IMG/VR virus record: IMGVR_UViG_3300032030_000143
Direction: 5' to 3' (one strand)
Length of the DNA stretch: 44,759 nt
Origin: a virus
This document shows positions 3,563-25,990 of the stretch, one piece after another. The position numbers were made by a program, and so were the translations under genes. Numbering within the stretch: position 1 is the stretch's first letter; every line of letters begins with the position of its first letter. The notes below the pieces were generated by a model. It saw only the letters and a program-made list of their open reading frames with translations. It did no database searches and had not been told where the DNA came from.

Positions 3563-3748
3563 ATGTCCTCTATCGCTGTCCGCTACATCGACCTGCTCAC
3601 TGGTATCATTAGCTCTGAGACCATGCGCCTGTGTGAGCTCCACCTGTTCCTCGAAGATGAAAACAACGGGGAAATCAAAATCCTTGAAATCGACCAGTCG
3701 TTCGATGGCTGGGAGACTATGGAAGTTATTTTCCAGCTCGACCAGTAA
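3563..3748 (+). CDS. hypothetical protein (61 aa)
   Basis: ORF track frame, start at the ATG after the AAGGAGAAAAG RBS; promoter at 3481-3510. Confidence 0.6.
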   Translation: MSSIAVRYIDLLTGIISSETMRLCELHLFLEDENNGEIKILEIDQSFDGWETMEVIFQLDQ

Positions 3749-3807
3749 AAAAAATTAAAAAAGGGGCTTGACAAACCCCTACAAATCTGATATAATCCAT
3801 AGTGTCA

Positions 3808-6638: not shown

Positions 6639-6989
6639 GCTCAGCCTAACCGCCCGGGCGATTTGTTAAGAAATTATCAAATGATTTTTTAAAATATCCT
6701 CTTGACATTTCGCAAAACATTTGTTATACTATAATTGTTCCAAGGGAAAGCGAAGAGAAGCGAGAAGCCCAAAGAAGCCGGCAAAACGGGTGATGCAGTC
6801 GCCATACCACTACCCTATGGGATCAAGGGGGATTCTCTTGAATCGCGAGTCAAGCGGAGAGAGGGAAGAATGTTCCCGCCGATAAAAAGAAACCCCCTTG
6901 CTTTTTGAAATGAAATTCAAAATACCCTCTTGACAAAACTTAAAAAGTATGCTATAATAAATACAGAAAGTAAGAAAACAATTAAATAT

Positions 6990-7076: not shown

Positions 7077-7329
7077 ATAACCTCCCATCTCCTTTCTTTC
7101 TCTCCTTTCTCTTTTCGTGCGGTTCCTACCCTATGGGTAGGAATTGCGCCCGGGCAAAAGATTGTTAAATAAATAACTTACATAAAAAGTATTGACTTTT
7201 AGAGAAAAAAGAGTATAATAATAATTGTCAAGAGGAAGGATATAGCCCAAAAAAATAAATGACCGCGTGGGTGTTTCGTGCGGGATATAAAAACTCTTGA
7301 CATAAAAAATAATATAAAGGTGATAAAAA

Positions 7330-8616: not shown

Positions 8617-9111
8617 TCTACCTTGATTGCCCGGGCGCGCGTTCACAAAAAGTTCATAATTTTTCGGCAAATACCTATTGACATTCGTGCACTTATCTGT
8701 TATACTATAATTGTTCCAAGGGAGTGGCCATCTACTGAGGAACTTTGAAGGGAAGCCAACATCATCCCTCCGAGTACTAAATAATGTGTGTTGATGACGT
8801 TGAGAATATCGTCCAATCGGAGACGAACCCCATTTCAAGAAGATAATGGGAAAGTAAATGTTCGATTGACCTTTAGTTTTATGGTTAAAGGTGGATATTC
8901 CTTGGGGTGACAGGTTTTGGTTTCCAAAAAAGGAAAACGAAAATAGATAGGAACCCTAAAAAATCCAAGGTAAAGTCTTTAAGTCCCACATTAGTAGGAT
9001 AACCAAGAGCGATGAATAATGGCCGCTTAAAGAAAACACTTTAAAAAGACTTGACAACATCCAAAAGGTATGCTATAATAAATACAGAAATAAGGAAAAG
9101 GAGAAGGTAAA

Positions 9112-13077: not shown

Positions 13078-13170
13078 GGCTAACCGCCCGGGCGAATTGT
13101 TAAATAAATAACTATTAAAAAAAGGTATTGACTTTCCGCCAAAAGAGAGTATAATAATAATTGTCAAGGG

Positions 13171-13450
13171 GGACAGCGGAAGACCACCGCGATACAAGTG
13201 TCTCAAAAGGTTATGGCGCCGACCGGAAAAAATAAAATTCCTCCTTGACAAGCCACACAGACTGTGGTATAATGAATACAGTCAAGAGGGCGGAACACCG
13301 TAGGCAGTAAGTCCCATACGACTAATAAAAAATTCAGTCAATGGCAATAAGTCCCTACGAACCGGAAAAATTTTTCAAAGAAATTTGAAAAACCCTCTTG
13401 ACAAACCCCACAGCCTGTGCTATAATAAGTATGTAAGGTAAAGGAAACCT
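13171..13450 (+). ncRNA. array I of short promoter-driven non-coding transcripts (3 consensus promoters, no ORF or RBS)
   Basis: Promoters at 13126-13170, 13236-13272 and 13403-13437, each followed by 60-110 nt of structured, ORF-less sequence. Confidence 0.35.
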
Positions 13451-13518
13451 AATGGAGCCTTGTCCTACTAAAAGGCTTTAGAATCTGGTAGGTAAATCTT
13501 TTGAAAGAGGTAGATACT

Positions 13519-13944
13519 ATGTCTCGTAAGCTGTCCTATGTTTCTGCGATTGATTTCGCTCTGTCCGTCCTGTCCCAGATTGACGCCGCTCAGGTGGCTA
13601 TCCCCGCCGAGGGTGAGGATGACGCGCCCATTTCTGTCGGTGAGGTTGTCGAAAAGATGACCGCTCTGCGTGAAGCGCAGATGAAGCGCTCCACTTCTAA
13701 GAAGGCCGAGGGTGAGTCCAAGACCCACAAGGCCAATGTTGAGCTGGCCGAGAAGATCTATGCCGCTATGGTGGCGGGTGAGGTTTACGATAACAAGGGC
13801 ATTAAGGCTCTTGTCCCGGAGCTGGTTGACGCCACTCCGCAGAAGCTGGCTCCTATCATGGCCTGTCTCAAGGGCCGTGTTACCGCCACTAAGGTGAAGG
13901 GCCGGGTGTCTTACATTCTGGCCCAGCCCGAAGCCGCAGAGTAA
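13519..13944 (+). CDS. hypothetical protein, paralog family B (141 aa)
   Basis: ORF track frame, start at the ATG after the AGAGGTAG RBS; conserved structured 5' leader at 13454-13518; canonical terminator at 13948-13980. Confidence 0.7.
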   Translation: MSRKLSYVSAIDFALSVLSQIDAAQVAIPAEGEDDAPISVGEVVEKMTALREAQMKRSTSKKAEGESKTHKANVELAEKIYAAMVAGEVYDNKGIKALVPELVDATPQKLAPIMACLKGRVTATKVKGRVSYILAQPEAAE

Positions 13945-13947
13945 TTA

Positions 13948-13980
13948 AAAAATCTGTCCCAATTCGGGGCAGATTTTTTT
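13948..13980 (+). terminator. rho-independent terminator
   Basis: AAAAATCTGTCCC..GGGGCAGATTTTTTT. Confidence 0.75.
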
Positions 13981-14138
13981 AACATCTGGTTAGCTTAGAC
14001 TAACCGCCCGGGCACATTGTTAAGTTTTTAACTTTCAAAATCCTTATTGACATTTTCAAAAAAGAGTGTATAATAATAAGTGAAATGAGGGGAACGAAGG
14101 TAAGCCCCCATTATCTAAAATGAATGGAGAATAATACT

Positions 14139-14780
14139 ATGTCCAAAAAGTATGTTAATGATCCGATGGGTAGTTATGAGAGCACTCAGGAGAAGCACTG
14201 GCAGGTTATTTATCTGTATCAGACTATGACTGCAAGCGCAGTTGCCTCTATTACAGGCTACGCGCCCAGCACTGTACGCAGCTACTATAACAAGTATCGT
14301 GCTGAACTTCCGATTGCAATTATCTTTTTTGAGAAGGGCGAAACGGAAGCCCCTGCCCGAAGAAAGACCGTAAGGCACAATGAGCGCCGCGTGTTTTATG
14401 GTAACACGGAAATCAACTGGCTGAACGGCACTGAAAATAAAGATGATGACGGAAATGAAAAGGCGTATCTTTTCCGGTTCTATGAAGATAATGCCGACCC
14501 CGTTTTTAGCAAGATTGGTACAACTGCTAAAACCTGTATCGGCAGATTGAAGGACGAAATCCGTTATTATAATAACAAAGCAAATTTCAATATCCAGAAG
14601 GTTGAAATTTGCGAGATTTGGGACTGTGGCGAAATGCCCGCAGAAAGCTATGAAAGCTTTATGCGCGCTCTGCTTATTCGTCAGTATCCCAATACTTGGA
14701 AAAAGAACGACCGCTTTTTCGGTGTCACCATTCCTGCCGAGGTATTCCTTGACCTCTGCAAGCAGTACGCCGAAATGTAA
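14139..14780 (+). CDS. HTH-domain protein (213 aa)
   Basis: ORF track frame, start at the ATG 11 nt after GGAG; helix-turn-helix-like segment TMTASAVASITGYAPSTVRSYYNKY; terminator hairpin at 14783-14808. Confidence 0.7.
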   Translation: MSKKYVNDPMGSYESTQEKHWQVIYLYQTMTASAVASITGYAPSTVRSYYNKYRAELPIAIIFFEKGETEAPARRKTVRHNERRVFYGNTEINWLNGTENKDDDGNEKAYLFRFYEDNADPVFSKIGTTAKTCIGRLKDEIRYYNNKANFNIQKVEICEIWDCGEMPAESYESFMRALLIRQYPNTWKKNDRFFGVTIPAEVFLDLCKQYAEM

Positions 14781-15051
14781 TACAGGGGAGGGGGAGTTAG
14801 CTCCCCCTAACCGCCCGGGCGCTTTGTTAAAGAAATAACTTTCAGAAACCTCTTGACTTTTTATTAAAAGAGAGTATAATAATAATTGTCAGGGGGCAAG
14901 AGAATTGATAAAGTAGGGACAGCCCCAAAGTGAGGATTGCTGAATGACCTTGCTTGAAAAATTTTCAAAGAAATTTGAAAATCCCCTTGACAAGAAAGAA
15001 AAGGCATGATATAATAAAAGCACAAAGAAAGAAAAAAGGAGATAAAAAAAA

Positions 15052-16176
15052 ATGGCCACTTATTATTCTGTCACCAAAGATCGCAACATGATTTACTTCA
15101 CCAATGAAGAGGGCAAAGCGTGGAGCTTTGATGTAAACACTGGCATTTTCCTTTCCCCCAAGGGTAACGCTGTCAAGTCTTTCCCGACTGGGCTGGGCAG
15201 TTTCATTGATGGGCATGATACCAGAAATGATATTCCTGCTGTCCGTCTGATGGCCTTTATCCGTAACTCTCCCTATGAATATGGTGTGCGGGATAATCAG
15301 AACTGCTACATGCTGAGAAATCCCAGCTATTATGCAAGACTCGCCCCTCTGTTTCAGACCATAGACAAAATGGCAAGTCTGGGCTGTTCTCCTGACCGCT
15401 GGAATGCTACTGCCTCTAACCTGACTTTCATCAATGACCATTTCAAGGCTTTTGCAAAGTGGTACAAGGATAATCAGTCTAATGAGATTGAAGAATTTAT
15501 CCGCCGTTATGGTGTTGAAATATATTGCCGTGAACACCACATTGATACCGAACACATGAGCGCAGATACTATTTCTTTTATTCAGTTTTATCTGGTCAAA
15601 AACAATGGTATTTACGGAACAAAATGGTCATCTCCGGAATATCTCCCCTATGTTATGTATTATCTGTCGCGTGGTTTGGTCGATTTTGTTGGCATAAATG
15701 TCGCAAGTAATTTGCTGAACACTTTTTTTGACTGGTGTGAAACCACTGGTATCAAGCCGCAGAAAACCGACTTTTATCGGCAGTATCTTGATGTAAAGCG
15801 TACTTATATTGCTAATAAAAAGCAGTATGACATGACGGCACTTGCCAATAACTACGCAGAAAAAAGAAATGCTCTGCTGTTTGAGGATGATACTTTTAAG
15901 GTTATTATCCCCACCACCACCGAGGAATTTCAGGCAGAGGGTGATGCACAGCATAACTGTGTGTACAGTATGTATCTTGAAAAGTGCATTAAAAATACTA
16001 CTCATGTGGTATTTATCCGCCGCAAGGACGCACTCAATAAGAGTTACATTACTTGTGAAGTTGACAAGCGCGGCAATATTGTTCAGTATCTCGGTCAGTA
16101 TAACAACTGGGTATCTGACCCTGACGCAATCGCTTTCAAAAAGCGGTACATGGAGTGGCTTGCCAAGAATTGGTAA
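15052..16176 (+). CDS. hypothetical protein (374 aa), largest early gene
   Basis: ORF track; promoter at 14986-15020; AAAAGGAGAT RBS; terminator hairpin at 16186-16208. Confidence 0.75.
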   Translation: MATYYSVTKDRNMIYFTNEEGKAWSFDVNTGIFLSPKGNAVKSFPTGLGSFIDGHDTRNDIPAVRLMAFIRNSPYEYGVRDNQNCYMLRNPSYYARLAPLFQTIDKMASLGCSPDRWNATASNLTFINDHFKAFAKWYKDNQSNEIEEFIRRYGVEIYCREHHIDTEHMSADTISFIQFYLVKNNGIYGTKWSSPEYLPYVMYYLSRGLVDFVGINVASNLLNTFFDWCETTGIKPQKTDFYRQYLDVKRTYIANKKQYDMTALANNYAEKRNALLFEDDTFKVIIPTTTEEFQAEGDAQHNCVYSMYLEKCIKNTTHVVFIRRKDALNKSYITCEVDKRGNIVQYLGQYNNWVSDPDAIAFKKRYMEWLAKNW

Positions 16177-16419
16177 GCCACTCAAATGGGGTAGGTAATT
16201 ACCTACCCCTAACCGCCCGGGCACTTTGTTAAAGAAATAACTTTTATTTTCCTATTGACTTTTCTAAATCATGTGCTATAATAATACATGTAAAGAAGAT
16301 AACGCGGAGGGAGCCGCAAGGCGTTATGACCTCTATCTTGATATACCCTTTGCCCTTTGGGGAGAGCCTTTCGGGTTATAATAGAAAAATCTCCCCAAAA
16401 TAAATTAAGGAGAATTAAA

Positions 16420-16659
16420 ATGGTAGGAATTAAATTTGAACATGGCCGCGACAAATATCATTATGAACACATGGATTTAGTTGGTTTATTAACTTTTCTA
16501 AATACTATTGCTATTATCTTTTGGAATAAAGGTGCTTATGTTGGCTTACCTGTTGCGATATTTGGCCTTGTTTATGACCTTTATCATGGTTGTCATTGGA
16601 ATAATGTTTCTATACGGTTATCTTTAATTGCTATGAATTTATACTTTTTATTCTCTTGA
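16420..16659 (+). CDS. small membrane protein (79 aa)
   Basis: Start at the ATG after the AAGGAGAAT RBS within track ORF 16357-16659; hydrophobic. Confidence 0.6.
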   Translation: MVGIKFEHGRDKYHYEHMDLVGLLTFLNTIAIIFWNKGAYVGLPVAIFGLVYDLYHGCHWNNVSIRLSLIAMNLYFLFS

Positions 16660-16716
16660 CAAGACGCCAAGAGTATGCTATAATTAAAGTACAAAAAAGG
16701 AAAGGAAGCAAATAAA

Positions 16717-16935
16717 ATGGCAGATGTTTTAGTAGAGTATTCCACAGTTGTCAAACGTACCATTGACATCCCTGATGAGATTTATAATCTCGCATTAAGT
16801 GGTAATTATTCTGATAAAGTGGCTAATTATTTTTGGGATGACCTTCAGAAGCGCGTGGCTGATAGTGACCCAAATTTCATTGAGCTGTGTGGTATTTATA
16901 CCACAGATTATCAGAATGCGTTAGCCGAGTATTAA
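16717..16935 (+). CDS. hypothetical protein (72 aa)
   Basis: ORF track; promoter at 16655-16690; AGGAAAGGAAG RBS. Confidence 0.65.
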   Translation: MADVLVEYSTVVKRTIDIPDEIYNLALSGNYSDKVANYFWDDLQKRVADSDPNFIELCGIYTTDYQNALAEY

Positions 16936-17048
16936 CCTCGGCTAACCGCCCGGGCGAATTGTTAAATAAATAACTATTAAAAAAGTCTTGACATTTTCTT
17001 AATCCAGTAGTATAATAAAATTACCAAAAGGAAAGGGGATAAAAAATA

Positions 17049-17261
17049 ATGAATGAACAGCTTATGCGCGACTGCCTTAGAATGTATCGTGACCGTGCCA
17101 CTTATTTTGAGGAAAAATGGAATAATACTCATGGGGTTGAAAGCTTGAAGGCTCTAAGCTCTTGTACTGCTTATGAAACGGCGGCAATTATGTTAGAATA
17201 TGCTTTATCGGATAATGCTGAATTATTGGCACAGTTTGACTATTATGGGGAGGGTAATTAA
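17049..17261 (+). CDS. hypothetical protein (70 aa)
   Basis: ORF track; promoter at 16989-17025; AAAGGGGAT RBS. Confidence 0.65.
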   Translation: MNEQLMRDCLRMYRDRATYFEEKWNNTHGVESLKALSSCTAYETAAIMLEYALSDNAELLAQFDYYGEGN

Positions 17262-17729
17262 ATGAAAGTTTACCTTGCGGCTCCATTCTTTACTGATAAA
17301 CAGAAGAATGAGAAGTCTACTGTTAAGGCGGCTCTCAGTTTCCGCAATGATGTAGAAATTCTTGACCCACAGGATTTTGATTTAGGGCTTTCTGGTTGGG
17401 AAATGACTAATCATCAGTGGGGGAAGAAAGTTTTTGACGCTGACGTTGAAGCCTTGTTAAAAGCAGACGCAGTAGTTGCCATTGACTATGGTCTGTATAG
17501 TGACACTGGTACAGCTTGGGAAATCGGTTTCGCTTATGGGGCTTGCATCCCTACAATTATCCTTGTACCTGATGAAACTATTTCCATTCAGCATTCTCTC
17601 ATGATAGGTAGTTCAAGTACAGTCTTTTGTTCTATTAAAAGATTTTGTAATGAACTTACCGTCCAAACTTTTGAAGAGTTCATGAAAACTGGTAATAAAT
17701 ATAACCTGCTTGGGGTAGAACTTAAATAA
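17262..17729 (+). CDS. nucleoside 2-deoxyribosyltransferase-family protein (NDT / DNPH1-like)
   Basis: N-terminal MKVYLAAPFF plus downstream D.G...E.G.A.G motifs typical of PF05014-family proteins; ORF track. Confidence 0.65.
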   Translation: MKVYLAAPFFTDKQKNEKSTVKAALSFRNDVEILDPQDFDLGLSGWEMTNHQWGKKVFDADVEALLKADAVVAIDYGLYSDTGTAWEIGFAYGACIPTIILVPDETISIQHSLMIGSSSTVFCSIKRFCNELTVQTFEEFMKTGNKYNLLGVELK

Positions 17730-17844
17730 GAACTACCCCAGCCCGCCCGGGCGGATTGTTAAAAAAATAATTTTCAAAAATCTATTGACATTCTTTTAGC
17801 CCAGTAGTATAATAAAATTACAAAAGGAAAGGAGAATAAAAAAA

Positions 17845-18033
17845 ATGGCTACTTTGAAAAATAATTTCGATAATGAGATGGTTCGTAAATTAATTATTAA
17901 AATGGGAAAACTCGCTACAAAGTATCAAATTCCGTATGATGACAGAGATATGGAAGCATATAAAAATAATAATGAGTTAGATACCCGCTGGGAAATTTAC
18001 GCAGAACTTTTAGAAGAGTTAATGGAGGAATAA
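17845..18033 (+). CDS. hypothetical protein (62 aa)
   Basis: ORF track; promoter at 17780-17815; AAGGAGAAT RBS. Confidence 0.6.
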   Translation: MATLKNNFDNEMVRKLIIKMGKLATKYQIPYDDRDMEAYKNNNELDTRWEIYAELLEELMEE

Positions 18034-18036
18034 AAA

Positions 18037-18348
18037 ATGATTACAGCAAAGGACATTCGGGGAGCGGAACAGCACCTTATTAATGAATGGGGTGTTGCTG
18101 GAGATAAAGTTGTTAATGAAGCCTGCTTTGTGCGGCACACTGAGCCATTTGGTGGTGGCACAAAAGAATTTCTTGACCATTGCGTATGTTGCGGTGGGAA
18201 TTGGGGTGGCATGTTCCTTTCTGGGATAGCAAAGTTATATCCTCGTGTGTATGAAGCTATCCCCGATGACATGGGAGCGACTGGAAATGAAGCCTTTATC
18301 AATATCATTTATGTGATGATGCTGTGCGGCGTGGATACCTCTCGGTAA
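18037..18348 (+). CDS. hypothetical protein (103 aa)
   Basis: ORF track; GGAGGAAT RBS; coupled to the upstream gene. Confidence 0.65.
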   Translation: MITAKDIRGAEQHLINEWGVAGDKVVNEACFVRHTEPFGGGTKEFLDHCVCCGGNWGGMFLSGIAKLYPRVYEAIPDDMGATGNEAFINIIYVMMLCGVDTSR

Positions 18349-18369
18349 TAAAAAAAGGAGATTTTAATA

Positions 18370-18633
18370 ATGACGGATTTAGGAATAATTGTATATATTA
18401 TTTCAGCAGCTTTAACAGGGATTCTTTTTGCTCTTAAAAGAATAGTTATCGCTCAGGACTTACCAATAAAAGTATCTTTAATGGATATTTTTGTTTTAAC
18501 TGTTCGTGCGGTTTTGCTTATGGGTCTTCCCATTATAAATAGTTTGTATGTACTAATTCATGCTCTAACTTGGCAAGACTGTGTGAATGATTTACGCACT
18601 GATATTCGACATAATGATTACCGATTATGTTAA
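18370..18633 (+). CDS. membrane protein (87 aa)
   Basis: ORF track; AAAGGAGAT RBS; hydrophobic; terminator hairpin at 18610-18640. Confidence 0.6.
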   Translation: MTDLGIIVYIISAALTGILFALKRIVIAQDLPIKVSLMDIFVLTVRAVLLMGLPIINSLYVLIHALTWQDCVNDLRTDIRHNDYRLC

Positions 18634-18771
18634 TCGGTAATCGCCCGGGCGCAAGATTGTTAAATAAATAACAATAAAAAACTATCTTGACTTTTTCAAA
18701 TTTTATGCTATACTATAATTGTTGATGCGGGAAAAGAAGTTAAGCCCCATCACAGAAAGGAAAAATATACT

Positions 18772-19482
18772 ATGGACAAAATGTATGTGTTAGTTCTGGA
18801 CGTAGAAACCGCTGGTGATGTTGAAACCAACCCTCTTGTCTATGACATTGGGGCTAAAATTGTTGATCTCACAGGCAATGTCGTGGAATGTGGGAGCTGG
18901 GTAATCTATGACATTTATACTCAGCGTGATCTCATGGCTTCTGCTTACTATGCTGCAAAATTGCCGCAGTATGAACATGACATGGCAAATGGCACCCGCA
19001 AGATGGCACGCCTTGAAACTGTCCGCAAAATTATTTGGAAGTGGATGTTCAAGTATAATGCTTTTACCGTTGCCGCTTACAATGCTTCTTTTGACCGCAG
19101 GGCCCTCAACAACACTGTCCGTACTCTTGGCATGGGTAGTTATTTCTTTCCCTTTAAGGCTGAATTTATCGACATTTGGCGGATGGCTTGTCTGTCTATT
19201 TGTATGATGAAAAGCTATCATCAGATGGCGTATGAAAACGGCTGGTATAGTGATGCTGGCAATATCCGTACAAATGCTGAAACTGTGTATAGCTTTCTCA
19301 CAAATGCGCCTGATTTTGAGGAATCTCATACTGCCCTTGAAGATGTCGATATTGAAACGGAAATTATGCTTTACTGTTGGAAAAAGGTAAAAGCGCAAGA
19401 CCGTGGCATCGTTGGCAATCCGTGGAAAATCCCGCAAAAAGAATGGATTTTTCATGAAGCAAAGTTCGATGAAATTATTTAA
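18772..19482 (+). CDS. DEDDh-family 3'-5' exonuclease (DnaQ-like), paralog 1
   Basis: Exo motifs LDVETAG (I), AYNASFDRRAL (II) and HTALEDVDIE (III); ORF track; canonical terminator at 19487-19518. Confidence 0.8.
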   Translation: MDKMYVLVLDVETAGDVETNPLVYDIGAKIVDLTGNVVECGSWVIYDIYTQRDLMASAYYAAKLPQYEHDMANGTRKMARLETVRKIIWKWMFKYNAFTVAAYNASFDRRALNNTVRTLGMGSYFFPFKAEFIDIWRMACLSICMMKSYHQMAYENGWYSDAGNIRTNAETVYSFLTNAPDFEESHTALEDVDIETEIMLYCWKKVKAQDRGIVGNPWKIPQKEWIFHEAKFDEII

Positions 19483-19486
19483 TAAA

Positions 19487-19518
19487 ATCGCAGGGAAAAA
19501 TCCCTGCGATTTTTTAAT
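19487..19518 (+). terminator. rho-independent terminator
   Basis: AAAATCGCAGGGA..TCCCTGCGATTTTTT. Confidence 0.75.
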
Positions 19519-19683
19519 TGAAAATTTAAAAAAAATATTATAAAATATTTATAGAAAATAAAAAATGAATATTATCGAATAAATATTCACCGCCCGGGCA
19601 ATCTTTTTTTAAAAATCCTATTGACAAGTCCTAAAAGATGATGTATAATAAAGGCACAAAGAAAGAAAAGGAGAAATAAAAAA

Positions 19684-20226
19684 ATGATTACTGCTAATGA
19701 ACTGATGAAAATTGAAATGGAAAGACAGGCCGCTCTGGAAGCAAGAAAGTTAAAGCATGAACAGTCTGCCGAAGCAATTAAGGCCGCAAGGCTTGAACAG
19801 GCAAAGGTAAATTATGAACATGCAAAAGAAAATGTAATTAAATTGTGCGAAGACCGCGTTGGGGCTTTGATTGAAGAAAACATCCAGAAGCAAGGCATTG
19901 ATAACTTTTCTATGCGGTTGCTGGTATCGCTTTTCACTGATGAATTGGGTAATAAACTTTTCAAAGTCGCATCTAAGGATGAGTTTATCCCTGAGAGTCC
20001 CAAAAAGCGAAGCAGATTTAGAAATAATGATCGTGAATATTTCATTGTTAATAGCTCTGATTTTTGTTATAAAACTTTTCAGCAATATTTAAGAAAGCAT
20101 GGCTTTAGAGTTGTGCAGGAACGCAGTAAAGAAACTGTCCCGTCAAGATGGTCTTTCCATTCTACCATTACTTGTAATGTTATCAATATTACTTTATTAA
20201 ATTCTCCTATTAAGAATGAGGATTAA
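19684..20226 (+). CDS. hypothetical protein (180 aa) with coiled-coil N-terminus
   Basis: ORF track; promoter at 19621-19655; AAAAGGAGAAAT RBS; terminator hairpin at 20210-20232. Confidence 0.7.
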   Translation: MITANELMKIEMERQAALEARKLKHEQSAEAIKAARLEQAKVNYEHAKENVIKLCEDRVGALIEENIQKQGIDNFSMRLLVSLFTDELGNKLFKVASKDEFIPESPKKRSRFRNNDREYFIVNSSDFCYKTFQQYLRKHGFRVVQERSKETVPSRWSFHSTITCNVINITLLNSPIKNED

Positions 20227-20325
20227 TTCCTCATTCGCCCGGGCGCCAGATTGTTAAATAAATAACTATTAAAAAAGGTATTGACTTTTCGCTAAAAGAG
20301 AGTATAATAATAATTGTTAAGGGGA

Positions 20326-20590
20326 GGGGCTCCCAAAAAAACAAAATCGCCTGTGGGATTTAACTGGCGACCTGATAAAAAAAATTCTTGAAACAAAGAA
20401 AAACCCCTTGACAAGCTCCACTTAATGTGGTATAATGAATACAGTTAAGAGGGCGGTGGAAACCACGATACGCACCGTTTGTGCTGATGAAAGAAACAAG
20501 CCCGAAAAAAATTTCAAAGAAATTTGAAATCCCTCTTGACAAACCCCACAAGCTGTGGTACAATAAGTATGTAAGGTAAAGAGAAAACGA
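20326..20590 (+). ncRNA. array II of short promoter-driven non-coding transcripts
   Basis: Consensus promoters at 20281-20325, 20406-20442 and 20540-20575 with no ORFs or RBS between them. Confidence 0.35.
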
Positions 20591-20657
20591 ACGGAGCCTT
20601 GTCCTACTAAAAGGCTTTAGAATCTGGTAGGTAAATCTTTTGAAAGAGGTAGATACT

Positions 20658-21047
20658 ATGGCTAATTCTGCTACTGATCGCAAGCCCACCAAGCGTGACC
20701 ACTTCAATCGGCTTTACACCATCGTGCAGGAGGGTTCTTATCCCGATGCTGACGAGCTGATGGGCTTTATTGAGCACGAGCTGGAACTGCTCGATAAGAA
20801 GAACTCCGGTGAGAAGAAGCCCACCGCCAAGCAGGTCGCTAATGCGGCTCTGGGTGAGGCCATTATCGGCTGGATGGAGCCCAATACCCTCTATCTGTCT
20901 GCCGAGGTTGCCAAGACTTGCCCCGCTGTCATTGACGCGGGTGCTACTCAGGGCACTGTCACCGCTATCTTGACCCAGCTTTACAAGGCTGGCAAGATTG
21001 TCCGTACCGAGGACAAGCGCAAGAACTATTACTCTCTCGCAGAGTAA
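20658..21047 (+). CDS. hypothetical protein, paralog family B (129 aa)
   Basis: ORF track frame, start at MANSATDRKPTKRD; conserved leader at 20594-20657. Confidence 0.7.
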   Translation: MANSATDRKPTKRDHFNRLYTIVQEGSYPDADELMGFIEHELELLDKKNSGEKKPTAKQVANAALGEAIIGWMEPNTLYLSAEVAKTCPAVIDAGATQGTVTAILTQLYKAGKIVRTEDKRKNYYSLAE

Positions 21048-21088
21048 TAGTCCCCTGCAAGGGGGAGAATAATCTCCCCCTAATCTAT

Positions 21089-21164
21089 GCGGGCATAGCT
21101 CAGATGGAAGAGCACTTGACTTTTAATCAAGGGGTCGGGGGTTCAAATCCCCCTGCCCGCACCA
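21089..21164 (+). tRNA. tRNA-Lys (anticodon UUU), CCA encoded
   Basis: Anticodon stem-loop CTTGA/CTTTTAA/TCAAG; T-arm GGGGGTTCAAATCCCCC; acceptor GCGGGCA/TGCCCGC. Confidence 0.85.
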
Positions 21165-21310
21165 CTAATTTCCCATCTCCTTTCTGTCTTTTGGCGGTTC
21201 CTACCCTATGGGTAGGAATTGCGCCCGGGCGAATTGTTAAATAAATAACTATTAAAAAAGGTATTGACTTTTCGCCAAAAGAGAGTATAATAATAATTGT
21301 CAAGGGGAGA

Positions 21311-21909
21311 AAGAAAACAACCTCTCTCAGGCGTGTAACCTGATGTAAGTAAAATCAAATCTCTTCAAAAAAATGGAAAAACCCCTTGACAGACTCACAG
21401 GTTTGTGATATAATGGATACAGTCAAGAGGGAGAGCCGAGAGTTGAAAAACATCGCCAAGGCTCGAAAAAAAATAAAAAAAATCTCCAAAACCCTCTTGA
21501 CAAGACCACGAACCTGTGGTATAATGATTATGCCATCTACCCATCTGCGTAGGGTAGTGAGGGGGACGCAGACCCCAAGAAGCGAGCAACGGCTTACAGA
21601 GAGCGCTGGACTCCGCGCCCATCGAGGCGGGAAGTGCTGGTAGAGCAGGGGACACCAGACGCCAGAACACAAGGGCATGTGGAATGGCAACACTTTTCCT
21701 GTATTGATTTGTCGGTTTTTAAGTAAACCTTCCGCAGTTTTGGACTGTTATAAGTTCTGCGTAAATAAAAACTTGCAAAAGAAATGGGTAAAGGCGTTGA
21801 GCGTGTATGTCTACCCCATTAAAAACGCTACAAAGGGTTTTACGGCAGGAGACCTATATAGGGGTGAGAAACCTATTCCCCTAATTTATAAGCGCGTGTA
21901 ACTTAAAAT
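21311..21909 (+). ncRNA. array III: short transcripts plus about 380 nt of GC-rich non-coding leader preceding the tRNAs
   Basis: Promoters at 21265-21310, 21378-21412 and 21496-21530. Track ORFs in this stretch overlap on both strands and lack RBS. Confidence 0.3.
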
Positions 21910-21986
21910 GGTGGGGTCTTCCAATCGTTTAGGATATGCAGTTAGTAGCTGTAAGATGGTGGTAATCGACTAATCCACCCCGCACC
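21910..21986 (+). tRNA. irregular tRNA-like element (possible tRNA pseudogene or non-canonical tRNA)
   Basis: Acceptor, D-like arm and anticodon-like arm (TGCAG/TTAGTAG/CTGTA) can be drawn, but the T-region GGTGG-TAATCGACTAAT-CCACC has a 12-nt loop. Confidence 0.3.
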
Positions 21987-21992
21987 TATCAT

Positions 21993-22079
21993 GGCCCCTT
22001 CTACTAATTGGATAGGTAATCAGGCTTTCAACCTGAAAATGGTGAGTTCAAACCTCCCAGGGGTCACCAATAATATCCT
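21993..22079 (+). tRNA. tRNA-Glu (anticodon UUC), CCA encoded
   Basis: GGCCCCTTC... start typical of tRNA-Glu; anticodon arm TCAGG/CTTTCAA/CCTGA; T-stem has one U.C mismatch. Confidence 0.6.
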
Positions 22080-22232
22080 CTCTCCTTTCTTTCCCTCCTT
22101 TCTCTTTCGGGCTCTACCACTTTAATGTGGTAGAGTTCCCGCCCGGGCGATTTGTTAATGTTTTAACACAGCTTGACAGGAAGAAAGAAAGATGCTATAA
22201 TATAATCACCAAAAGGAAAGGATTTTGAACAA

Positions 22233-22463
22233 ATGAAAGAAAAGATTTTGGCTTGTCTTAATCGTTATCCCGGAGCCCGCAAACGTGAAGTTGCCACAGA
22301 AATTCATTGCCCTGTAAATGGTATATTTCTTCATAGCTTTAGCGAGCTGGAAGATATTGGTTTTATCCAGCATGTTACTATTAATGATCCTGCGAATATG
22401 GAATTTTATGATAAATGGTACTTGACAGATGTCGGGTATCGTGCTATAATGAATGTAGACTAA
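22233..22463 (+). CDS. small winged-helix-like protein (76 aa)
   Basis: ORF track; promoter at 22170-22205; AAAGGAAAGGAT RBS; C-terminal WYLTDVGYRAIM resembles 26273-26443. Confidence 0.6.
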   Translation: MKEKILACLNRYPGARKREVATEIHCPVNGIFLHSFSELEDIGFIQHVTINDPANMEFYDKWYLTDVGYRAIMNVD

Positions 22464-22482
22464 AAGGAAGGGGGAAACACTA

Positions 22483-22899
22483 ATGGCAAAAATTACATTG
22501 ACTGAAAAAAATATTGCCGATTACATGAAGCGGAATAAGTGCAATCGTGAAGAAGCTATCGAACTTATCAACTATGATAATGCGATAGAGGGCGGCGAAG
22601 AAACTGAATATGACCTTAGCCCTGAGCAGGTAAAAGTCGTGCAGGAAATGAACCGCAAGATTGACCATGCGAAGCCCACCACTATTAAGCGGGAGCGCAA
22701 GCCGAATGAATTGAAAGAAGCTCTTGTAGCCGCACTTGCGGACTTCCTTGAAAATACTTGCGAATTTGAAATGAAAGACAACGGGGTTATTTATTGTGGT
22801 GATGTAGAAATTACCAACAAAAACCGTATGATTCATTTCACTTGCAAAGACAAGGAATTTGACCTCCAGCTTATTGAAAAGCGGGCAAAAAAGTCCTAA
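22483..22899 (+). CDS. hypothetical protein (138 aa), paralog of 5818-6177
   Basis: ORF track; promoter embedded at 22418-22455; GGAAGGGGGAAA RBS; terminator hairpin at 22900-22920. Confidence 0.65.
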   Translation: MAKITLTEKNIADYMKRNKCNREEAIELINYDNAIEGGEETEYDLSPEQVKVVQEMNRKIDHAKPTTIKRERKPNELKEALVAALADFLENTCEFEMKDNGVIYCGDVEITNKNRMIHFTCKDKEFDLQLIEKRAKKS

Positions 22900-23418
22900 A
22901 TAGGCGAATCCCCGAACTTTTCGGGGCAATTCGCCCGGGCCATTTGTTAAATAAATAACTTATAAATAGATATTGACAACTACCCCCAATCCTGTTATAA
23001 TATAATTGTTCCAAGGGAAAGCAAGAAAGTGACTGAGTCTGTTAGATTTGAGTCTGCGAATGGGTGCACACATTCATGATTCGTTCCTCAGCCAGTCGGT
23101 CAACCTTGTGGAAGCTTCTTACCAAGGAACATTCTCTGGGTAGGATTTGCTACCCTACCCATACAAATTTAATATAGGGAAGACGTAGGAAAGGAGTTAG
23201 TAAAACATGGTTTTACTACTGCGTTTACCGCATCTTTGACACTTCTGCGGTGTTATAAATTTTGAGACACTACCCACCTATTGGTACGGTGGGCGAGTGC
23301 CCGGGCGCAAAGATTGTTAAAAATTTAATTATTAAAAAATCTATTGACTTTCTGCCGAAAAAGAGTATAATAATAATTGTCCAAAGGATAAAAAATAAAA
23401 AAAGGAAGAATAAAAAAA

Positions 23419-23820
23419 ATGAAGTGTGCCGCAGAATTGATTATGATGAAGAATAAAGCAGTTGAAGCCCATAATGCCATTGTTAATGCTAAATACGAAG
23501 AGATGGTTGCGAATGCGATTAATCTTTGTGAGACAACTATTAACGATGCACTTACTAAAAAGGCGGAAGACAGAGAGCTTTTGAAAGTTGCGTATTGGGT
23601 TGGAACTTATACAGATGAACTTGGTCATGAATTTTTCCGCTTTGGTGCACATCGTACACATTTGATTTCATCTCAGCCAGCTTATGCTATGGAGCCTTTT
23701 ATTGATTATCTTCATAAGTTTTGCCTTGAAGTAAATATAGGTGAGGCGGATGGAAGTGGAGATAGAAAACTCACTGTCTACGTTCCAAAGAAAGATGATA
23801 ATAGAATCTGTGGTGTGTAA
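23419..23820 (+). CDS. hypothetical protein (133 aa)
   Basis: ORF track; promoter at 23345-23390; AAAGGAAGAAT RBS. Confidence 0.65.
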   Translation: MKCAAELIMMKNKAVEAHNAIVNAKYEEMVANAINLCETTINDALTKKAEDRELLKVAYWVGTYTDELGHEFFRFGAHRTHLISSQPAYAMEPFIDYLHKFCLEVNIGEADGSGDRKLTVYVPKKDDNRICGV

Positions 23821-23930
23821 GGGGAGTTAATCTTCCCTAACCGCCCGGGCGGATTGTTAAATAAATAACTTTTAAAAAAGGTATTGACTTTTCTGTAAAA
23901 ACGAGTATAATAATAATTGTTAAGGGGAGC

Positions 23931-24335
23931 GGTAAAGAGTGAGAACAAGCGCTGACCGCGAAAAAAAATAAACTATACTAGGATGGGAAAACCCCTTGAC
24001 AAGTCCCACAAAGTGTGGTATAATAAAGATGTTGATAGGGAAGAGCCGAGCAAGGACGCAATTTGGACGGTGCGCGCGTGAAAAGCTACTGCCTATGGCT
24101 CAATAAAAAAAATAAAAATATTTCCTAAACCCTATTGACAAAACCACATGCCTGTGGTATAATAAGTATGTAAATAAGGGCGAGCAGGTTGAGTAGCCCC
24201 CCTAGGGGGCAAAAGTTAAATGGGGGGTTCGATTCCCCCCACGCCCCCAAAAAAAATAAAAATGGTCTTGACAAAAGCTTAAACCTATGATATAATAAGT
24301 ATGTAAGCAAGAGGGAGTTGAAAATCCCCTGCTAA
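23931..24335 (+). ncRNA. array IV of short promoter-driven transcripts, including a tRNA-like element
   Basis: Promoters at 23884-23930, 23996-24032, 24133-24168 and 24269-24300 with no ORFs. Confidence 0.35.
24178..24249 (+). ncRNA. tRNA-like element without a D-arm, carrying a CUA-containing GC hairpin
   Basis: Acceptor-like pairing GGGCGAG/CACGCCC (6 of 7 bp); canonical T-arm GGGGGG-TTCGATT-CCCCCC; GC hairpin GCCCC-CCCTAGG-GGGGC with CTA at 24202-24204; own promoter. Confidence 0.35.
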
Positions 24336-24401
24336 TAAAAGCCTTGTCCTACTAAAAGGCTTTAGAATCTGGTAGGTAAAAAAACGAAAGAGGTAGATAC
24401 T

Positions 24402-24782
24402 ATGGCTAATTCTGCTACTGATCGCAAGCCCACCAAGCGTGACCGCTTCAACGAACTGCTCGGCATTCCCGCCGTGGCTGAGAATGAGGATCTGGTTGAG
24501 TTTATCAATCACGAGATTGAACTGCTCGACAAGAAGAACACCGCGGAGCGGAAGCCCACTGCTAAGCAGGTCGCTAATGAGGGGTATAAGGCAGCCATTC
24601 TCGGCTGGATGGAGCCTAACCACCTGTATCTGGCGGCTGAGATCGTCAAGGGGTGTCCCACTATTGTGGAAAACGGTGTCACCGCTGGCACTGTGACCGC
24701 CCTGCTGACCCAGCTTTATAAGGCTGGCAAGATTGTCCGCACTGAGGACAAGCGCAAGAATTATTACTCCCTTGCGGAGTAA
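24402..24782 (+). CDS. hypothetical protein, paralog family B (126 aa)
   Basis: ORF track; conserved leader at 24336-24401; about 70% identical to 20658-21047. Confidence 0.7.
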   Translation: MANSATDRKPTKRDRFNELLGIPAVAENEDLVEFINHEIELLDKKNTAERKPTAKQVANEGYKAAILGWMEPNHLYLAAEIVKGCPTIVENGVTAGTVTALLTQLYKAGKIVRTEDKRKNYYSLAE

Positions 24783-24823: not shown

Positions 24824-24897
24824 GGGCGTGTAGCTGAGGGGTTTAGCAATAGGCTGTTAACCTATGGACGAAGGTTCGAGACCTTCCACGCTCGCCA
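24824..24897 (+). tRNA. tRNA-Asn (anticodon GUU), CCA encoded
   Basis: Acceptor GGGCGTG/CACGCTC; anticodon arm ATAGG/CTGTTAA/CCTAT; T-arm GAAGG-TTCGAGA-CCTTC. Confidence 0.8.
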
Positions 24898-25079: not shown

Positions 25080-25289
25080 ATGATGGCGGATAACCCTGTG
25101 TCATGGTTTTTCCTTACCGTAATTGGTATTTATTTTATTTGTCGCTTTTTTAAAAAAGTTATTGATGAAAGCGAACGCCTAAAAGCAGAAAGAGAAAAAG
25201 CCTGTCAAGAAATTTTCTTTGAAAATTCTCTTGACAAAACGAACGCTATGGCGTATAATAGATTTATCAACAGGAGGGAAAACAAATGA
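25080..25289 (+). CDS. small protein with N-terminal TM helix (69 aa)
   Basis: ORF track; promoter at 25021-25058; AAGGAG RBS; the 3' end contains the promoter for the next gene. Confidence 0.55.
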   Translation: MMADNPVSWFFLTVIGIYFICRFFKKVIDESERLKAEREKACQEIFFENSLDKTNAMAYNRFINRRENK

Positions 25290-25990
25290 ACTACATGATG
25301 ATTGATACTGAGACTACTAATAGTCTTGATGATCCCCTTGCCTACGATGTAGGTTTTGAGGTCTTTAATCGTGACGGTAACACTATTGAAACGGCATCTT
25401 TGACTAACAAAGATTTGTTTCTTGATAAAGATTTTATGTCCACCGCTTACTATGCCGAAAAAATTCCTAACTATTGGAAAGAGATTTGGGCAAAAGAGCG
25501 TGAACTTTTGACTTGGCGAGAAATCAAGTGGAGAGTGTTTGATGCTTGTAAACGGAACAATTGTCAGATTGTGGCGGCCCATAACGCTATGTTTGACAAT
25601 CGGGCATTAAATCTGACCCAGCGTTATATTACTACCAGTCAGCACCGTTATTTCCTGCCGTATGGTGTAACTTGGTGGGACACTCTAAAAATGGCTCGTG
25701 AAGTCCTCGGCAAAGATGAAACTTATGCACGATTTTGTGAATACTTTGGATATACCACTGCAAAAGGTAAGCCCCGCTTTACCGCTGAAATTGTGTATAA
25801 ATACATTAGCGGGGATATAGATTTTGAGGAACGACACACCGGCCTTGAAGATGTCAAGATAGAAAAAGATATTTTTCTTTACTGTCTTGACCGTGTTCCC
25901 GACATAGATGGGCGGCTTTGGAAACCGAAGCCGGAGCCGCCCCGAAAAATGGAACCTTGGGAAATCGAATTACAAGAATTACTTGCATAA
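25286..25990 (+). CDS. DEDDh-family 3'-5' exonuclease, paralog 2
   Basis: Motifs IDTETTN, AHNAMFDNRAL and HTGLEDVKIE; ORF track; CAGGAGGGAAAA RBS. Confidence 0.8.
   Translation: MNYMMIDTETTNSLDDPLAYDVGFEVFNRDGNTIETASLTNKDLFLDKDFMSTAYYAEKIPNYWKEIWAKERELLTWREIKWRVFDACKRNNCQIVAAHNAMFDNRALNLTQRYITTSQHRYFLPYGVTWWDTLKMAREVLGKDETYARFCEYFGYTTAKGKPRFTAEIVYKYISGDIDFEERHTGLEDVKIEKDIFLYCLDRVPDIDGRLWKPKPEPPRKMEPWEIELQELLA

What the first reader, a model, noticed from the sequence alone, without database searches (positions are those of the whole stretch)
13126..24400. Four tandem arrays of consensus promoters driving short ORF-less transcripts, each array immediately upstream of a family-B gene or tRNAs
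The arrays lie at 13126-13450, 20281-20590, 21265-21909 and 23884-24335. Each has 3-4 near-perfect promoters (CTTGACAA-N17-TATAAT) spaced 70-140 bp apart. Between them are only hairpin-rich sequences with no RBS or ORF. Transcript 5' ends share GUCAAGAGGG or GUCAAGGGG. Several promoter spacers hold a CCACAnnnTGTGG palindrome (13246, 20416, 20551, 21505, 24008, 24145). Several are preceded by the palindrome AAATTTTCAAAGAAATTTGAAAA. Arrays I, II and IV feed into the conserved family-B leader and array III into tRNAs. This is a highly organised small-RNA and operator locus with no obvious described counterpart.
Basis: seen in the sequence. Interest (0 to 1): 0.7.

Follow-up and report, generated by a model that had tools for sequence, protein, structure and literature searches.

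The report
Stacked early promoters with structured-RNA cassettes
In the early region of a large rumen phage, three or four perfect host-type promoters are stacked in front of a small DNA-binding-protein gene or a tRNA, and each promoter's transcript starts with a helix that pairs with the next promoter's -35 region, enclosing a highly variable folded RNA: a new twist on known phage promoter cassettes, whose function is still unproven.

Summary
Positions 1-28000 (+ strand) hold 44 exact TTGAC[AT]-N16-17-TATAAT promoters, against 0.015 expected. Four stacks of 3-4 promoters have no RBS or ORF between them.

The new finding is that each transcript start, GUYAAG(A)GGG, pairs with CCC(U)CUUGAC. That sequence is the C-rich flank plus the -35 hexamer of the next promoter. 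The helix covaries (pair 7: AU 15, GC 13, GU 8) and pairs across the unit, not across the promoter. It closes a 60-110 nt insert that is more structured than shuffled sequence.

About 100 related rumen loci yield 114 distinct inserts in 64 sequence families. These are swapped between arrays in close relatives, and two families are tRNA-like.

The arrays contain no terminator, no T-run outside one AU hairpin and no module-boundary motif. "Short transcripts" is therefore unproven. Nested read-through into the winged-helix family-B gene or the tRNAs is more likely.

The closest known systems are the PeSL promoter/stem-loop cassettes of T4-type phages and the T7 A1-A3 tandem early promoters. I rate this a new variant of a known kind, because the cargo is ORF-less structured RNA. 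A role as trans-acting small RNAs is not excluded.

The parts
13087..13103 (+). Module-boundary motif CCCGGGC-N-TTGTTAA just before array I. Further copies at 20238, 21224 and 23844 open arrays II-IV. The next copies, at 14007, 21224, 22142 and 24985, close each module.
   Evidence: 20 copies on the + strand against 0 expected, and none inside an array.
13128..13426 (+). Array I. Promoters at 13128-13155, 13245-13273 and 13398-13426. Unit I-1 is 13163-13249 and unit I-2 is 13281-13402.
   Evidence: The unit I-1 family is 97.8% paired and has a pseudoknot helix with 2 compensatory pairs.
13434..13518 (+). Family-B leader with an H-type pseudoknot. The core is 13456-13494: GCCUU/AAGGC crossed by CCUAC/GUAGG.
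   Evidence: 100% paired, and 4 of the 5 pairs of helix 2 are compensatory across 26 variants.
13519..13944 (+). Family-B paralog 1 (141 aa).
20281..20564 (+). Array II. Promoters at 20281-20308, 20408-20436 and 20536-20564. Units are 20316-20412 and 20444-20540.
   Evidence: In the relative, the same two units sit in the array syntenic to array IV.
20595..20633 (+). Leader pseudoknot, copy 2.
20658..21047 (+). Family-B paralog 2 (129 aa), followed by tRNA-Lys at 21089-21164.
21264..21525 (+). Array III. Promoters at 21264-21291, 21386-21414 and 21497-21525. Units are 21299-21390 and 21422-21501.
   Evidence: Unit III-1 is about 96% identical to the single unit of the relative's array I. The whole stretch of about 900 bp is absent from relative L022.
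21526..21992 (+). Non-coding stretch without a promoter, lying between array III and tRNA-Glu (21993-22069). It is a composite of modules that are conserved separately in relatives.
   Evidence: The 74-aa ORF is not frame-conserved in L096.
23884..24296 (+). Array IV. Promoters at 23884-23911, 23996-24024, 24135-24163 and 24268-24296. Units are 23919-24000, 24031-24139 and 24171-24272.
   Evidence: Unit IV-2 has the compensatory arm pair GUUGAUAGGG/CCCUAUUGAC in all 5 distinct end-pair variants found (7 arrays).
24178..24250 (+). tRNA-like core of unit IV-3. It has an acceptor-like stem GGGCGAG/CACGCCC, a T arm GGGGGGUUCGAUUCCCCCC and a central hairpin with CUA in its loop.
   Evidence: The T arm matches the tmRNA model at positions 347-363 (E 5e-4 to 2e-3). 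It is not called as a tRNA. Relatives are called at a relaxed ARAGORN threshold.
24340..24378 (+). Leader pseudoknot, copy 3.
24402..24782 (+). Family-B paralog 3 (126 aa). The C-terminal domain is a winged helix. It is followed by tRNA-Asn at 24824-24897.
   Evidence: AF2 pLDDT 85. Foldseek hits are Zalpha, MarR, ArsR, PadR, Fur and TubR. tRNA.
14853..15015 (+). A fifth, two-promoter stack (14853-14880 and 14987-15015). Its unit 14888-14991 is closed by GUCAGGGGG/CCCCUUGAC. It lies upstream of a PcfJ-like gene at 15052-16176.
7192..7291 (+). A promoter (7192-7219) plus one unit closed by GUCAAGAG/CUCUUGAC. It lies in front of a small gene and has no good second -10. The insert is homologous to a unit family found upstream of family-B in relatives.

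Best explanation
Each array is a stack of three or four host sigma-70/sigma-A early promoters inside one transcription module. The module runs: boundary motif, stack, leader, family-B gene or non-coding RNA, tRNA, next boundary motif.

Shown:
- The predicted first bases of each transcript, GUYAAG(A)GGG, form a 9-11 bp helix with CCC(U)CUUGAC. That sequence is the C-rich flank plus the -35 hexamer of the next promoter.
- The helix clamps a 60-110 nt insert into a compact domain of hairpins and pseudoknots.
- The clamp and the internal helices are kept by compensatory change, while the insert sequence is replaced wholesale between relatives.

Inferred:
- All promoters fire toward the same gene and nothing stops transcription inside the stack. 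They therefore give nested, co-terminal transcripts. This multiplies early output of the winged-helix family-B protein and of the tRNAs, as the A1-A3 promoters do in T7.
- Each transcript carries its own 5'-terminal structured domain with no single-stranded 5' overhang. This is the known recipe for protecting an RNA from 5'-end-dependent RNases.
- The near-identical promoters act as recombination sites that add, delete and swap the ORF-less cassettes, as PeSLs do for ORFan cassettes in T4-type phages.
- The weak spacer hairpins (CCACA..UGUGG, which includes the -16 TRTG element) may attenuate read-through, as PeSL stem-loops do.
For: Promoters: 44 observed against 0.015 expected, all on one strand.

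No ORF or RBS follows the array promoters, unlike ordinary promoters here.

Clamp helix:
- It appears in all MFE folds except that of the tRNA-like unit IV-3, which has no complementary arms, and the 7192 unit, which was extracted short of its 3' arm; its GUCAAGAG/CUCUUGAC arms were read directly from the sequence.
- 65 of 114 units have 9 or more contiguous pairs.
- Shuffling partners among the 64 families gives 6.74 +/- 0.12 against 7.56 observed (0 of 2000).
- 92% of cells are paired, against 31-57% in slid controls. Pair 7 is AU 15, GC 13, GU 8.
- G.T 25 against A.C 5 points to the + strand RNA.
- It pairs across the unit rather than across its own promoter: 8.3 against 5.9 bp, 32:4, p = 4e-7.

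Insert structure:
- Mean z is -2.5 against -0.8 for control segments (p = 3e-8).
- There is pseudoknot and hairpin covariation.

Ordinary leaders: the same GUCAAAGGG..CCCUUGA hairpin begins single-promoter mRNA leaders, at window 3483 and in L086, L122 and L080.

No terminator, T-run or boundary motif lies inside the arrays.

Tandem promoters upstream of family-B persist in relatives at 31-43% identity, even where the inserts are A-rich and unstructured, as in L064.

All three family-B genes in the window carry an array, against about 2 of about 40 other genes. This count is my reading.

Shuffling between close relatives is shown.

Precedents:
- PeSL (PMC2839356).
- T7 A1-A3 and the wHTH repressor Gp5.7 (PMC5569994).
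- Two TSSs upstream of the first LTR gene of Listeria phage CKA15 that its authors suggest may be tandem promoters (PMC12282133).
- 5' stem-loop stabilisers, from the reference list of PMC3997798.
Against: - Transcription starts and ends are predicted, not mapped.
- PeSL stem-loops lying between -35 and -10 were shown to terminate strongly. The spacer hairpins followed by UAUAAU might do the same here and give discrete RNAs.
- A simple stabiliser does not need 64 insert families, internal pseudoknots or tRNA-like folds. It also does not explain why inserts are conserved as modules across divergent phages (L039 at about 80%).
- No unit is duplicated within the window.
- The host and its RNases are unknown.
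- The sequences in the permutation tests are related, so the p-values are optimistic.
Confidence: 0.5

Rival explanations
1. The units are discrete, trans-acting small RNAs. Each would be made from its own promoter and ended by attenuation at the hairpin inside the next promoter, or by processing in the A-rich linker. Possible roles are decoys, tRNA mimics, or anti-defence or regulatory RNAs. The arrays would then be a shuffled repertoire of RNA genes.
For: - Every unit has its own consensus promoter.
- Clamp and internal helices covary.
- Structure z-scores are strong.
- There are 64 families, with modules conserved across contexts and across divergent phages.
- No unit is duplicated in the window.
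- Two families are tRNA-like.
- PeSL spacer stem-loops terminate transcription experimentally (PMC2839356).
- Phage K makes ncRNAs from its own early promoters next to tRNA genes (PMC9241854).
Against: - There is no canonical terminator or T-run.
- The spacer hairpins are only 4-6 bp.
- The proximal promoter of array IV has no spacer hairpin (read).
- The arrays are tied tightly to one gene family.
- In distant relatives the inter-promoter segments can be unstructured A-rich filler.
- The same clamp hairpin is an ordinary mRNA leader element.
Confidence: 0.3
2. The repeats act at the DNA level. The palindromes in and upstream of the promoters would be operators for a phage regulator, for example the family-B winged-helix protein shutting off its own early promoters as T7 Gp5.7 does. 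Alternatively, the inverted repeats would be recombination sites.
For: - Family-B has a winged-helix fold.
- T7 Gp5.7 is a wHTH protein that represses A1-A3 through the -35 region.
- The spacer palindromes are enriched: 72% have 4 or more bp against 44% in shuffles.
- The cassettes do recombine.
Against: - Half-site spacing varies by 2 bp and G.T is tolerated.
- The G.T versus A.C asymmetry of 25:5 points to one strand as RNA.
- The arms of the clamp lie 70-120 bp apart.
- Compensatory changes are not what a protein site predicts.
Confidence: 0.1
3. The units are decayed tRNA genes left over in a phage tRNA cluster where each tRNA had its own promoter.
For: - Unit IV-3 keeps a T arm and an acceptor-like stem.
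- A unit in L085 scores 26.5 bits against the tRNA-Sec model.
- True tRNAs lie next to the arrays.
Against: - Only 2 of 64 families show any tRNA likeness.
- The other families fold as clamp plus hairpins or pseudoknots, with covariation, so they are maintained rather than decaying.
Confidence: 0.05
4. The segments encode micro-proteins.
For: 21 of 64 families have an SD-like motif plus a start codon and 10 or more codons, against 11.8 +/- 2.8 in shuffles.
Against: - The excess comes from the purine-rich 5' arm.
- The starts are mostly GTG or TTG.
- Members of one family differ by indels that are not multiples of three.
- There is no AAAGGAG-N7-ATG, which every real gene here has.
Confidence: 0.02

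Closest known systems
PeSL (promoter-early stem-loop) cassettes of T4-type phages RB49 and phi1 (PMC2839356, PMC4122927)
   Same: - Strong sigma-70 consensus promoters with an AT-rich upstream region.
- An attached stem-loop that can lie between -35 and -10 or overlap -35, often built on GGGG...CCCC.
- Dense occurrence in a region of small early genes.
- Recombination between copies inserts, deletes and swaps cassettes between close relatives.
   Different: - Here the cargo between consecutive promoters is an ORF-less structured RNA, not an ORFan.
- The main helix is long-range, from +1 of one promoter to the -35 flank of the next.
- The promoters are stacked 3-4 deep in front of one gene family.
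- The phage is unrelated: no similarity to the window DNA or to the family-B protein was found in annotated phage records.
- Terminator activity is untested.
T7 early promoters A1, A2 and A3, with the wHTH repressor Gp5.7 (PMC5569994)
   Same: - Three strong host-RNAP promoters in tandem at about 110-130 bp spacing, with no genes between them (the T7 spacing and the absence of genes between A1-A3 are from my own knowledge; the paper read states only that three strong early promoters drive the early genes).
- All drive the first early genes.
- A small winged-helix protein is part of the same circuit.
   Different: - The T7 inter-promoter segments are not known to form clamp helices or to be hypervariable.
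- There is one such cluster per T7 genome, at the entering end, against at least five here.
- Any role of family-B as a repressor is only a guess.
5'-terminal stem-loop mRNA stabilisers (ompA, papA, aprE leaders; the SP82 polypurine stabiliser). Cited in PMC3997798.
   Same: - The helix starts at or next to +1 and leaves no 5' overhang.
- It is also found as a plain hairpin on ordinary leaders of this phage.
- The short leaders here are purine-rich, SD-first.
   Different: - The loops are expanded into 60-110 nt structured, variable domains.
- The 3' arm doubles as a promoter -35.
- Stabilisation is untested.
Phage ncRNAs with their own early promoters beside tRNA genes (phage K lnc001 and lnc002, likened by that paper's authors to GOLLD and ROOL by their location relative to tRNAs; PMC9241854, PMC12286853)
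   Same: Non-coding RNAs driven by their own promoters in an early or tRNA region of a large Firmicutes-type phage.
   Different: - No Rfam family matches, including GOLLD and ROOL.
- The units are small, stacked and hypervariable.

Membership tests
PeSL cassettes | Strong sigma-70-like consensus promoter with an AT-rich upstream region | tested here: met
   A-tracts or an AU palindrome lie upstream of each -35.
PeSL cassettes | Stem-loop attached to the promoter (between -35 and -10, overlapping -35, or upstream) | tested here: met
   Spacer hairpins of 4 or more bp occur in 72% of promoters, against 44% in shuffles. The clamp 3' arm overlaps -35.
PeSL cassettes | Each cassette carries a small ORF (ORFan) with SD and ATG | tested here: not met
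   The array units have no RBS or ORF. Ordinary single promoters in the window do meet this feature.
PeSL cassettes | Copies mediate insertion, deletion and replacement between close relatives | tested here: met
   Units move between arrays, and array III is absent from a relative at 85-90% identity. There are 64 families in about 100 arrays. Mini-circles are not testable here.
PeSL cassettes | The stem-loop terminates or attenuates upstream transcription | not testable with these tools
   There is no canonical terminator. In vitro transcription or a reporter assay is needed.
T7-type tandem early promoters | Three or more strong host-RNAP promoters, co-directional, with no gene between them, ahead of early genes | tested here: met
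T7-type tandem early promoters | Located at the genome end that enters the cell first | not testable with these tools
   The genome ends are unknown. The homologous region lies at 145-154 kb of a 239.6 kb contig.
5'-terminal stem-loop stabiliser | Stable helix starting within a few nt of the 5' end | tested here: inconclusive
   The helix starts 7-8 nt after the -10, which is the expected +1. The TSS has not been mapped.
5'-terminal stem-loop stabiliser | Lengthens RNA half-life | not testable with these tools
   An experiment is needed.
Independent sRNA gene | Own promoter and own terminator giving a discrete RNA | tested here: inconclusive
   A promoter is present. No intrinsic terminator or T-run is present. 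The clamp shows that the RNA extends into the next promoter.
tRNA / tmRNA | Cloverleaf scoring above the ARAGORN or Rfam thresholds | tested here: not met
   Unit IV-3 matches the T arm only. The L085 unit scores 26.5 bits, below the gathering score of 47.
Any Rfam family (riboswitches, GOLLD, ROOL, 6S and others) | Match at the gathering score | tested here: not met
   Only the four tRNAs match. Nothing credible appears at E up to 10.
CRISPR array / integron attC array | Fixed-length repeats with spacers plus cas genes, or the attC R''/R' consensus plus an integrase | tested here: not met
   The repeats are complete promoters. Unit lengths are mostly 61-164 nt. The arms GTYAAGRGG/CCYCTTGAC do not fit GTTRRRY/RYYYAAC when read directly. 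No cas or integrase hit appeared among the ten proteins scanned.

The most novel reading that the evidence does not exclude
The arrays are an open, recombination-shuffled repertoire of small structured RNAs, including tRNA-like ones. Each RNA would be made at very high level from its own consensus promoter early in infection and released by attenuation or processing. They would act in trans as decoys or inhibitors of host RNA-directed or tRNA-directed defences or RNases. This would amount to an RNA-cassette analogue of an integron or PeSL system, widespread in rumen and gut phages.
Probability: 0.25. Interest if true: 0.85.

Novelty: new variant of a known kind. Interest (0 to 1): 0.6.

Why it matters
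If the reading holds, a large and so far undescribed group of rumen and gut phages builds its early transcripts on a fixed design. A promoter is followed by a clamp helix that reuses the next promoter's -35, and the helix encloses an exchangeable structured RNA.

That offers three things:
- A ready test bed for how 5' structure and tandem promoters set early expression in Gram-positive-type hosts.
- Dozens of new structured RNA families with covariation support.
- A case where promoter-mediated cassette shuffling moves RNA modules rather than genes.

If the RNAs act in trans, this would be a new class of phage counter-defence or host-takeover RNAs.

Tried and rejected
- Rfam at gathering score and at E up to 10 found only tRNAs, plus T-arm and tRNA-Sec-like fragments.
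- Megablast of the 12 kb region against phage records found nothing. tblastn of family-B found one unannotated faecal contig.
- Micro-ORFs are not conserved. The 74-aa ORF in 21677-21901 is broken by frameshifts in L096.
- Stop-codon recoding, which might explain the CUA-loop tRNA-like unit, shows no ORF-length signal in this window.
- Pairing of the -35 flank with its own promoter's transcript start (a cruciform or attenuator across the promoter) is rejected in favour of pairing across the unit.
- Capture of coding or antisense fragments as the source of inserts is not supported. All homologous hits are in the same orientation and in promoter contexts.
- A divergent promoter using the GTCAAG complement has no -10 on the minus strand. 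This was read directly from the sequence.
- Frpo-like single-strand promoters are not needed. Each promoter is complete in duplex DNA, and the -10 is never paired.
- Host identification through genome contigs gave only MAG bins of inconsistent taxonomy.
- MAFFT misaligned the second pseudoknot family (A7), so its covariation is reported only by eye.

Full report
**What the window is.** Positions 1-28000 are packed with small + strand genes. Almost every gene has its own perfect sigma-70/sigma-A promoter.
- There are 44 exact TTGAC[AT]-N16-17-TATAAT matches on the + strand and 2 on the - strand. Dinucleotide shuffles give 0.015. There are none beyond 28 kb.
- Many promoters carry TGTG-N-TATAAT. 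From my own knowledge, this is the -16 TRTG element typical of Gram-positive promoters.
- Ordinary promoters reach a strong AAAGGAG-N7-ATG within 10-35 nt.
- A close relative (85-90% identity) is the 239.6 kb contig IMGVR_UViG_3300028805_000039.
- There are no annotated relatives and the host is unresolved.

**The observation.** All four arrays exist where stated.
- They hold 3, 3, 3 and 4 promoters, with start-to-start spacing of 111-153 bp.
- No RBS or ORF lies between the promoters.
- The starts GTCAAG(A)GGG or GTTAAG(A)GGG are shared.
- Spacer palindromes CCACA-N3-5-TGTGG and the AU palindrome TTTCAAAGAAATTTGAAA are present.
- Arrays I, II and IV run into an identical 35-nt leader core. 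Array III runs into 465 nt of non-coding sequence and then tRNA-Glu.
- Array III has only three promoters.
- Two further stacks of the same design lie at 14853/14987 and at 7192.

**The key anatomy.**
- The shared 5' motif is the reverse complement of the sequence just upstream of, and including, the next promoter's -35: GUCAAGAGGG pairs with CCCUCUUGAC.
- MFE folds of the window units close with this helix, except the tRNA-like unit IV-3, which has no complementary arms, and the 7192 unit, which was extracted short of its 3' arm.
- To test the helix I collected relatives. A metagenome scan with the conserved RBS-ATG 19-mer gave 91 rumen loci and about 100 distinct family-B upstream regions. 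Nearly all have 2-4 tandem promoters.
- From these I extracted 114 distinct inter-promoter units.
- 65 of them have 9 or more contiguous pairs in the clamp.
- Shuffling 3' arms among one representative of each of the 64 families lowers the mean helix from 7.56 to 6.74 +/- 0.12 (0 of 2000 shuffles reach the observed value).
- On an arm alignment, 92% of cells pair, against 31-57% when partners are slid. Pair 7 alternates AU 15, GC 13, GU 8. The variant GUUGAUAGGG always meets CCCUAUUGAC.
- Non-Watson-Crick cells are G.T 25 against A.C 5, as expected for the + strand RNA.
- The -35 flank pairs with the upstream transcript start rather than with its own promoter's start: 8.3 against 5.9 bp, 32:4, p = 4e-7.
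- The same design occurs in many other rumen and gut phage contigs, including relatives at 30-40% protein identity: L004, L011, L016, L030, L031, L039, L058 and L066.

**The inserts.**
- They are more structured than dinucleotide shuffles. Mean z is -2.5, and 61% fall below -2. Random window segments give -0.8 and 16% (p = 3e-8).
- The family that contains unit I-1 shows a pseudoknot helix AGGC/GCCU changing to AGGU/ACCU and AGAC/GUCU, with 97.8% of cells paired.
- Other families show the same kind of change by eye.
- The inserts are nonetheless hypervariable. There are 64 sequence families, 41 of them singletons.
- Close relatives carry different units at syntenic arrays. The relative's array I holds the window's unit III-1. 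Its array IV-equivalent holds the window's array II units plus the tRNA-like unit. It lacks array III, the 465-nt RNA and tRNA-Glu altogether.
- Two families are tRNA-like.
- No Rfam family fits.
- Micro-ORFs are not conserved.

**Are the transcripts short?** Several points argue against it.
- There is no intrinsic terminator.
- The only run of 4 or more T in arrays I, II and IV lies inside the AU palindrome.
- The phage's own module-boundary motif, CCCGGGC-N-TTGTTAA, has 20 + strand copies against 0 expected. It brackets each array plus its gene and tRNA and never occurs inside an array.
- The covarying clamp means each RNA reaches at least the next -35.
- The same hairpin, GUCAAAGGG..CCCUUGA, starts ordinary single-promoter leaders at window 3483 and in L086, L122 and L080.
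- Tandem promoters upstream of family-B persist in distant relatives, even with unstructured A-rich filler between them.

I therefore favour nested read-through transcripts with structured 5' domains. The caveat is that PeSL stem-loops placed between -35 and -10 terminate strongly in vivo (PMC2839356). The spacer hairpins here are enriched, have variable loop length and tolerate G.T. They might attenuate transcription and give discrete RNAs.

**What the arrays feed.**
- Family-B is a protein of 126-141 aa. It has hundreds of metagenomic homologs and no Pfam domain.
- The AF2 model (pLDDT 85) has an N-terminal helical part and a C-terminal winged helix. Foldseek finds Zalpha, MarR, ArsR/SmtB, PadR, Fur and TubR, with a target TM of about 0.8 over about 70 residues for the best matches (the Zalpha domains) and weak E-values.
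- Its leader holds an H-type pseudoknot. Helix 2 takes the forms CCUAC/GUAGG, GCUAC/GUAGC, GUCGC/GCGAC and CCCAC/GUGGG. All cells are paired, and 4 of 5 pairs are compensatory.
- Two of the three family-B genes are followed directly by a tRNA.

**Comparison with known systems.**
- PeSLs share the promoter, the attached stem-loop and the shuffling. They carry ORFans, however, and have no long-range clamp.
- T7 A1-A3 share the tandem ORF-less early promoters and a wHTH partner, Gp5.7.
- Herelleviridae give examples of possible tandem promoters at the first early gene and of promoter-driven ncRNAs beside tRNAs.
- 5'-terminal stem-loops are classical stabilisers.

None of these describes ORF-less, hypervariable, structure-conserved RNA cassettes clamped from +1 to the next -35.

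**Verdict.** This is a new variant of a known kind, with interest 0.6.

**Main uncertainties.**
- The transcript ends are unmapped.
- The host is unknown.
- The sequences used in the permutation tests are related to one another.

Noticed in passing
window 13456-13494, 20595-20633, 24340-24378: The family-B leader contains an H-type pseudoknot, GCCUU/AAGGC crossed by CCUAC/GUAGG. Its loops are invariant (UAAA, AGAAUCUG), and there are four covarying forms of helix 2 in relatives. No Rfam match. It is a candidate translational operator or riboswitch-like element. Some relatives use a different element instead, GGGU-NNCG-ACCUA-CGNN, just before the RBS.
   Followed up: yes
window 22973-23300: A promoter (22973-23001) drives a non-coding RNA of about 300 nt. 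It is conserved at 79-95% in 14 or more loci, including a distant relative (L061). Its first 160 nt or so are nearly invariant. Its own 5' end, GUUCC, pairs with GGAAC about 120 nt downstream. No Rfam family.
   Followed up: partly
window 21526-21992: A 465-nt non-coding stretch lies between array III and tRNA-Glu. It is built of modules (1-170, 256-378, 374-467) that occur in different combinations in relatives. In L096 it follows family-B directly.
   Followed up: partly
window 6731-6925, 8707-9045, 16283-16400: Three further promoter-driven stretches have no ORF and are conserved in relatives. Two start with the same GUUCCAAGGGA as the RNA at 23002.
   Followed up: partly
window 6653-26730 (20 sites, e.g. 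13087, 20238, 21224, 23844): The module-boundary motif (CC)GCCCGGGC(G)-N-TTGTTAAATAAATAAC occurs 25-35 nt upstream of a subset of promoters. A hairpin at the end of the upstream gene usually precedes it. There are 20 + strand copies against 0 expected. Its function is unknown; it could be a terminator, an insulator or a regulator site.
   Followed up: partly
window 24178-24250; L085 5589-5668: tRNA-like cassettes. The window unit has CUA in the loop of its central hairpin, and its relatives keep CUA with a U before it. ARAGORN at a relaxed threshold calls one relative tRNA-Pyl(cta). The L085 unit resembles tRNA-Sec or tRNA-Leu(caa), with a long acceptor stem. These may be odd suppressor tRNAs. 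The window shows no sign of recoding.
   Followed up: partly
window 13373-13390, 14963-14980, 20512-20529: The AU palindrome reads as an 8-bp hairpin with a GAAA tetraloop (UUUUCAAA-GAAA-UUUGAAAA). It sits where a promoter UP element would be. A variant at about 6905 appears to swap the arms while keeping hairpin potential.
   Followed up: partly
window 33212-35554: A 780-aa protein matches the major vault protein shoulder and repeat domains (PF11978 at 1.7e-20; PF17795 at 1.3e-08). This is unusual for a phage.
   Followed up: no
window about 28000: There is a sharp change of regime. Consensus promoters stop, G+C falls from about 40% to about 31%, and gene organisation changes. This is probably the border between the early and middle/late regions.
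   Followed up: no
window 15052-16176; 18772-19482 and 25286-25990: A PcfJ-like protein, a family known from conjugative plasmids, sits behind its own two-promoter stack. Two paralogous proteins match a PHROG family of unknown function (phrog_20187) most strongly and, more weakly, a family annotated as DNA polymerase exonuclease subunit.
   Followed up: no
L058, L061, L064, L068 (about 3600-3800): In distant relatives, family-B is the first gene after a divergent promoter region. That region has conserved TTTGTGCA(A/T)TTT elements. The same element precedes the window promoters at 5764 (+), 3102 (-) and 27882 (-).
   Followed up: no
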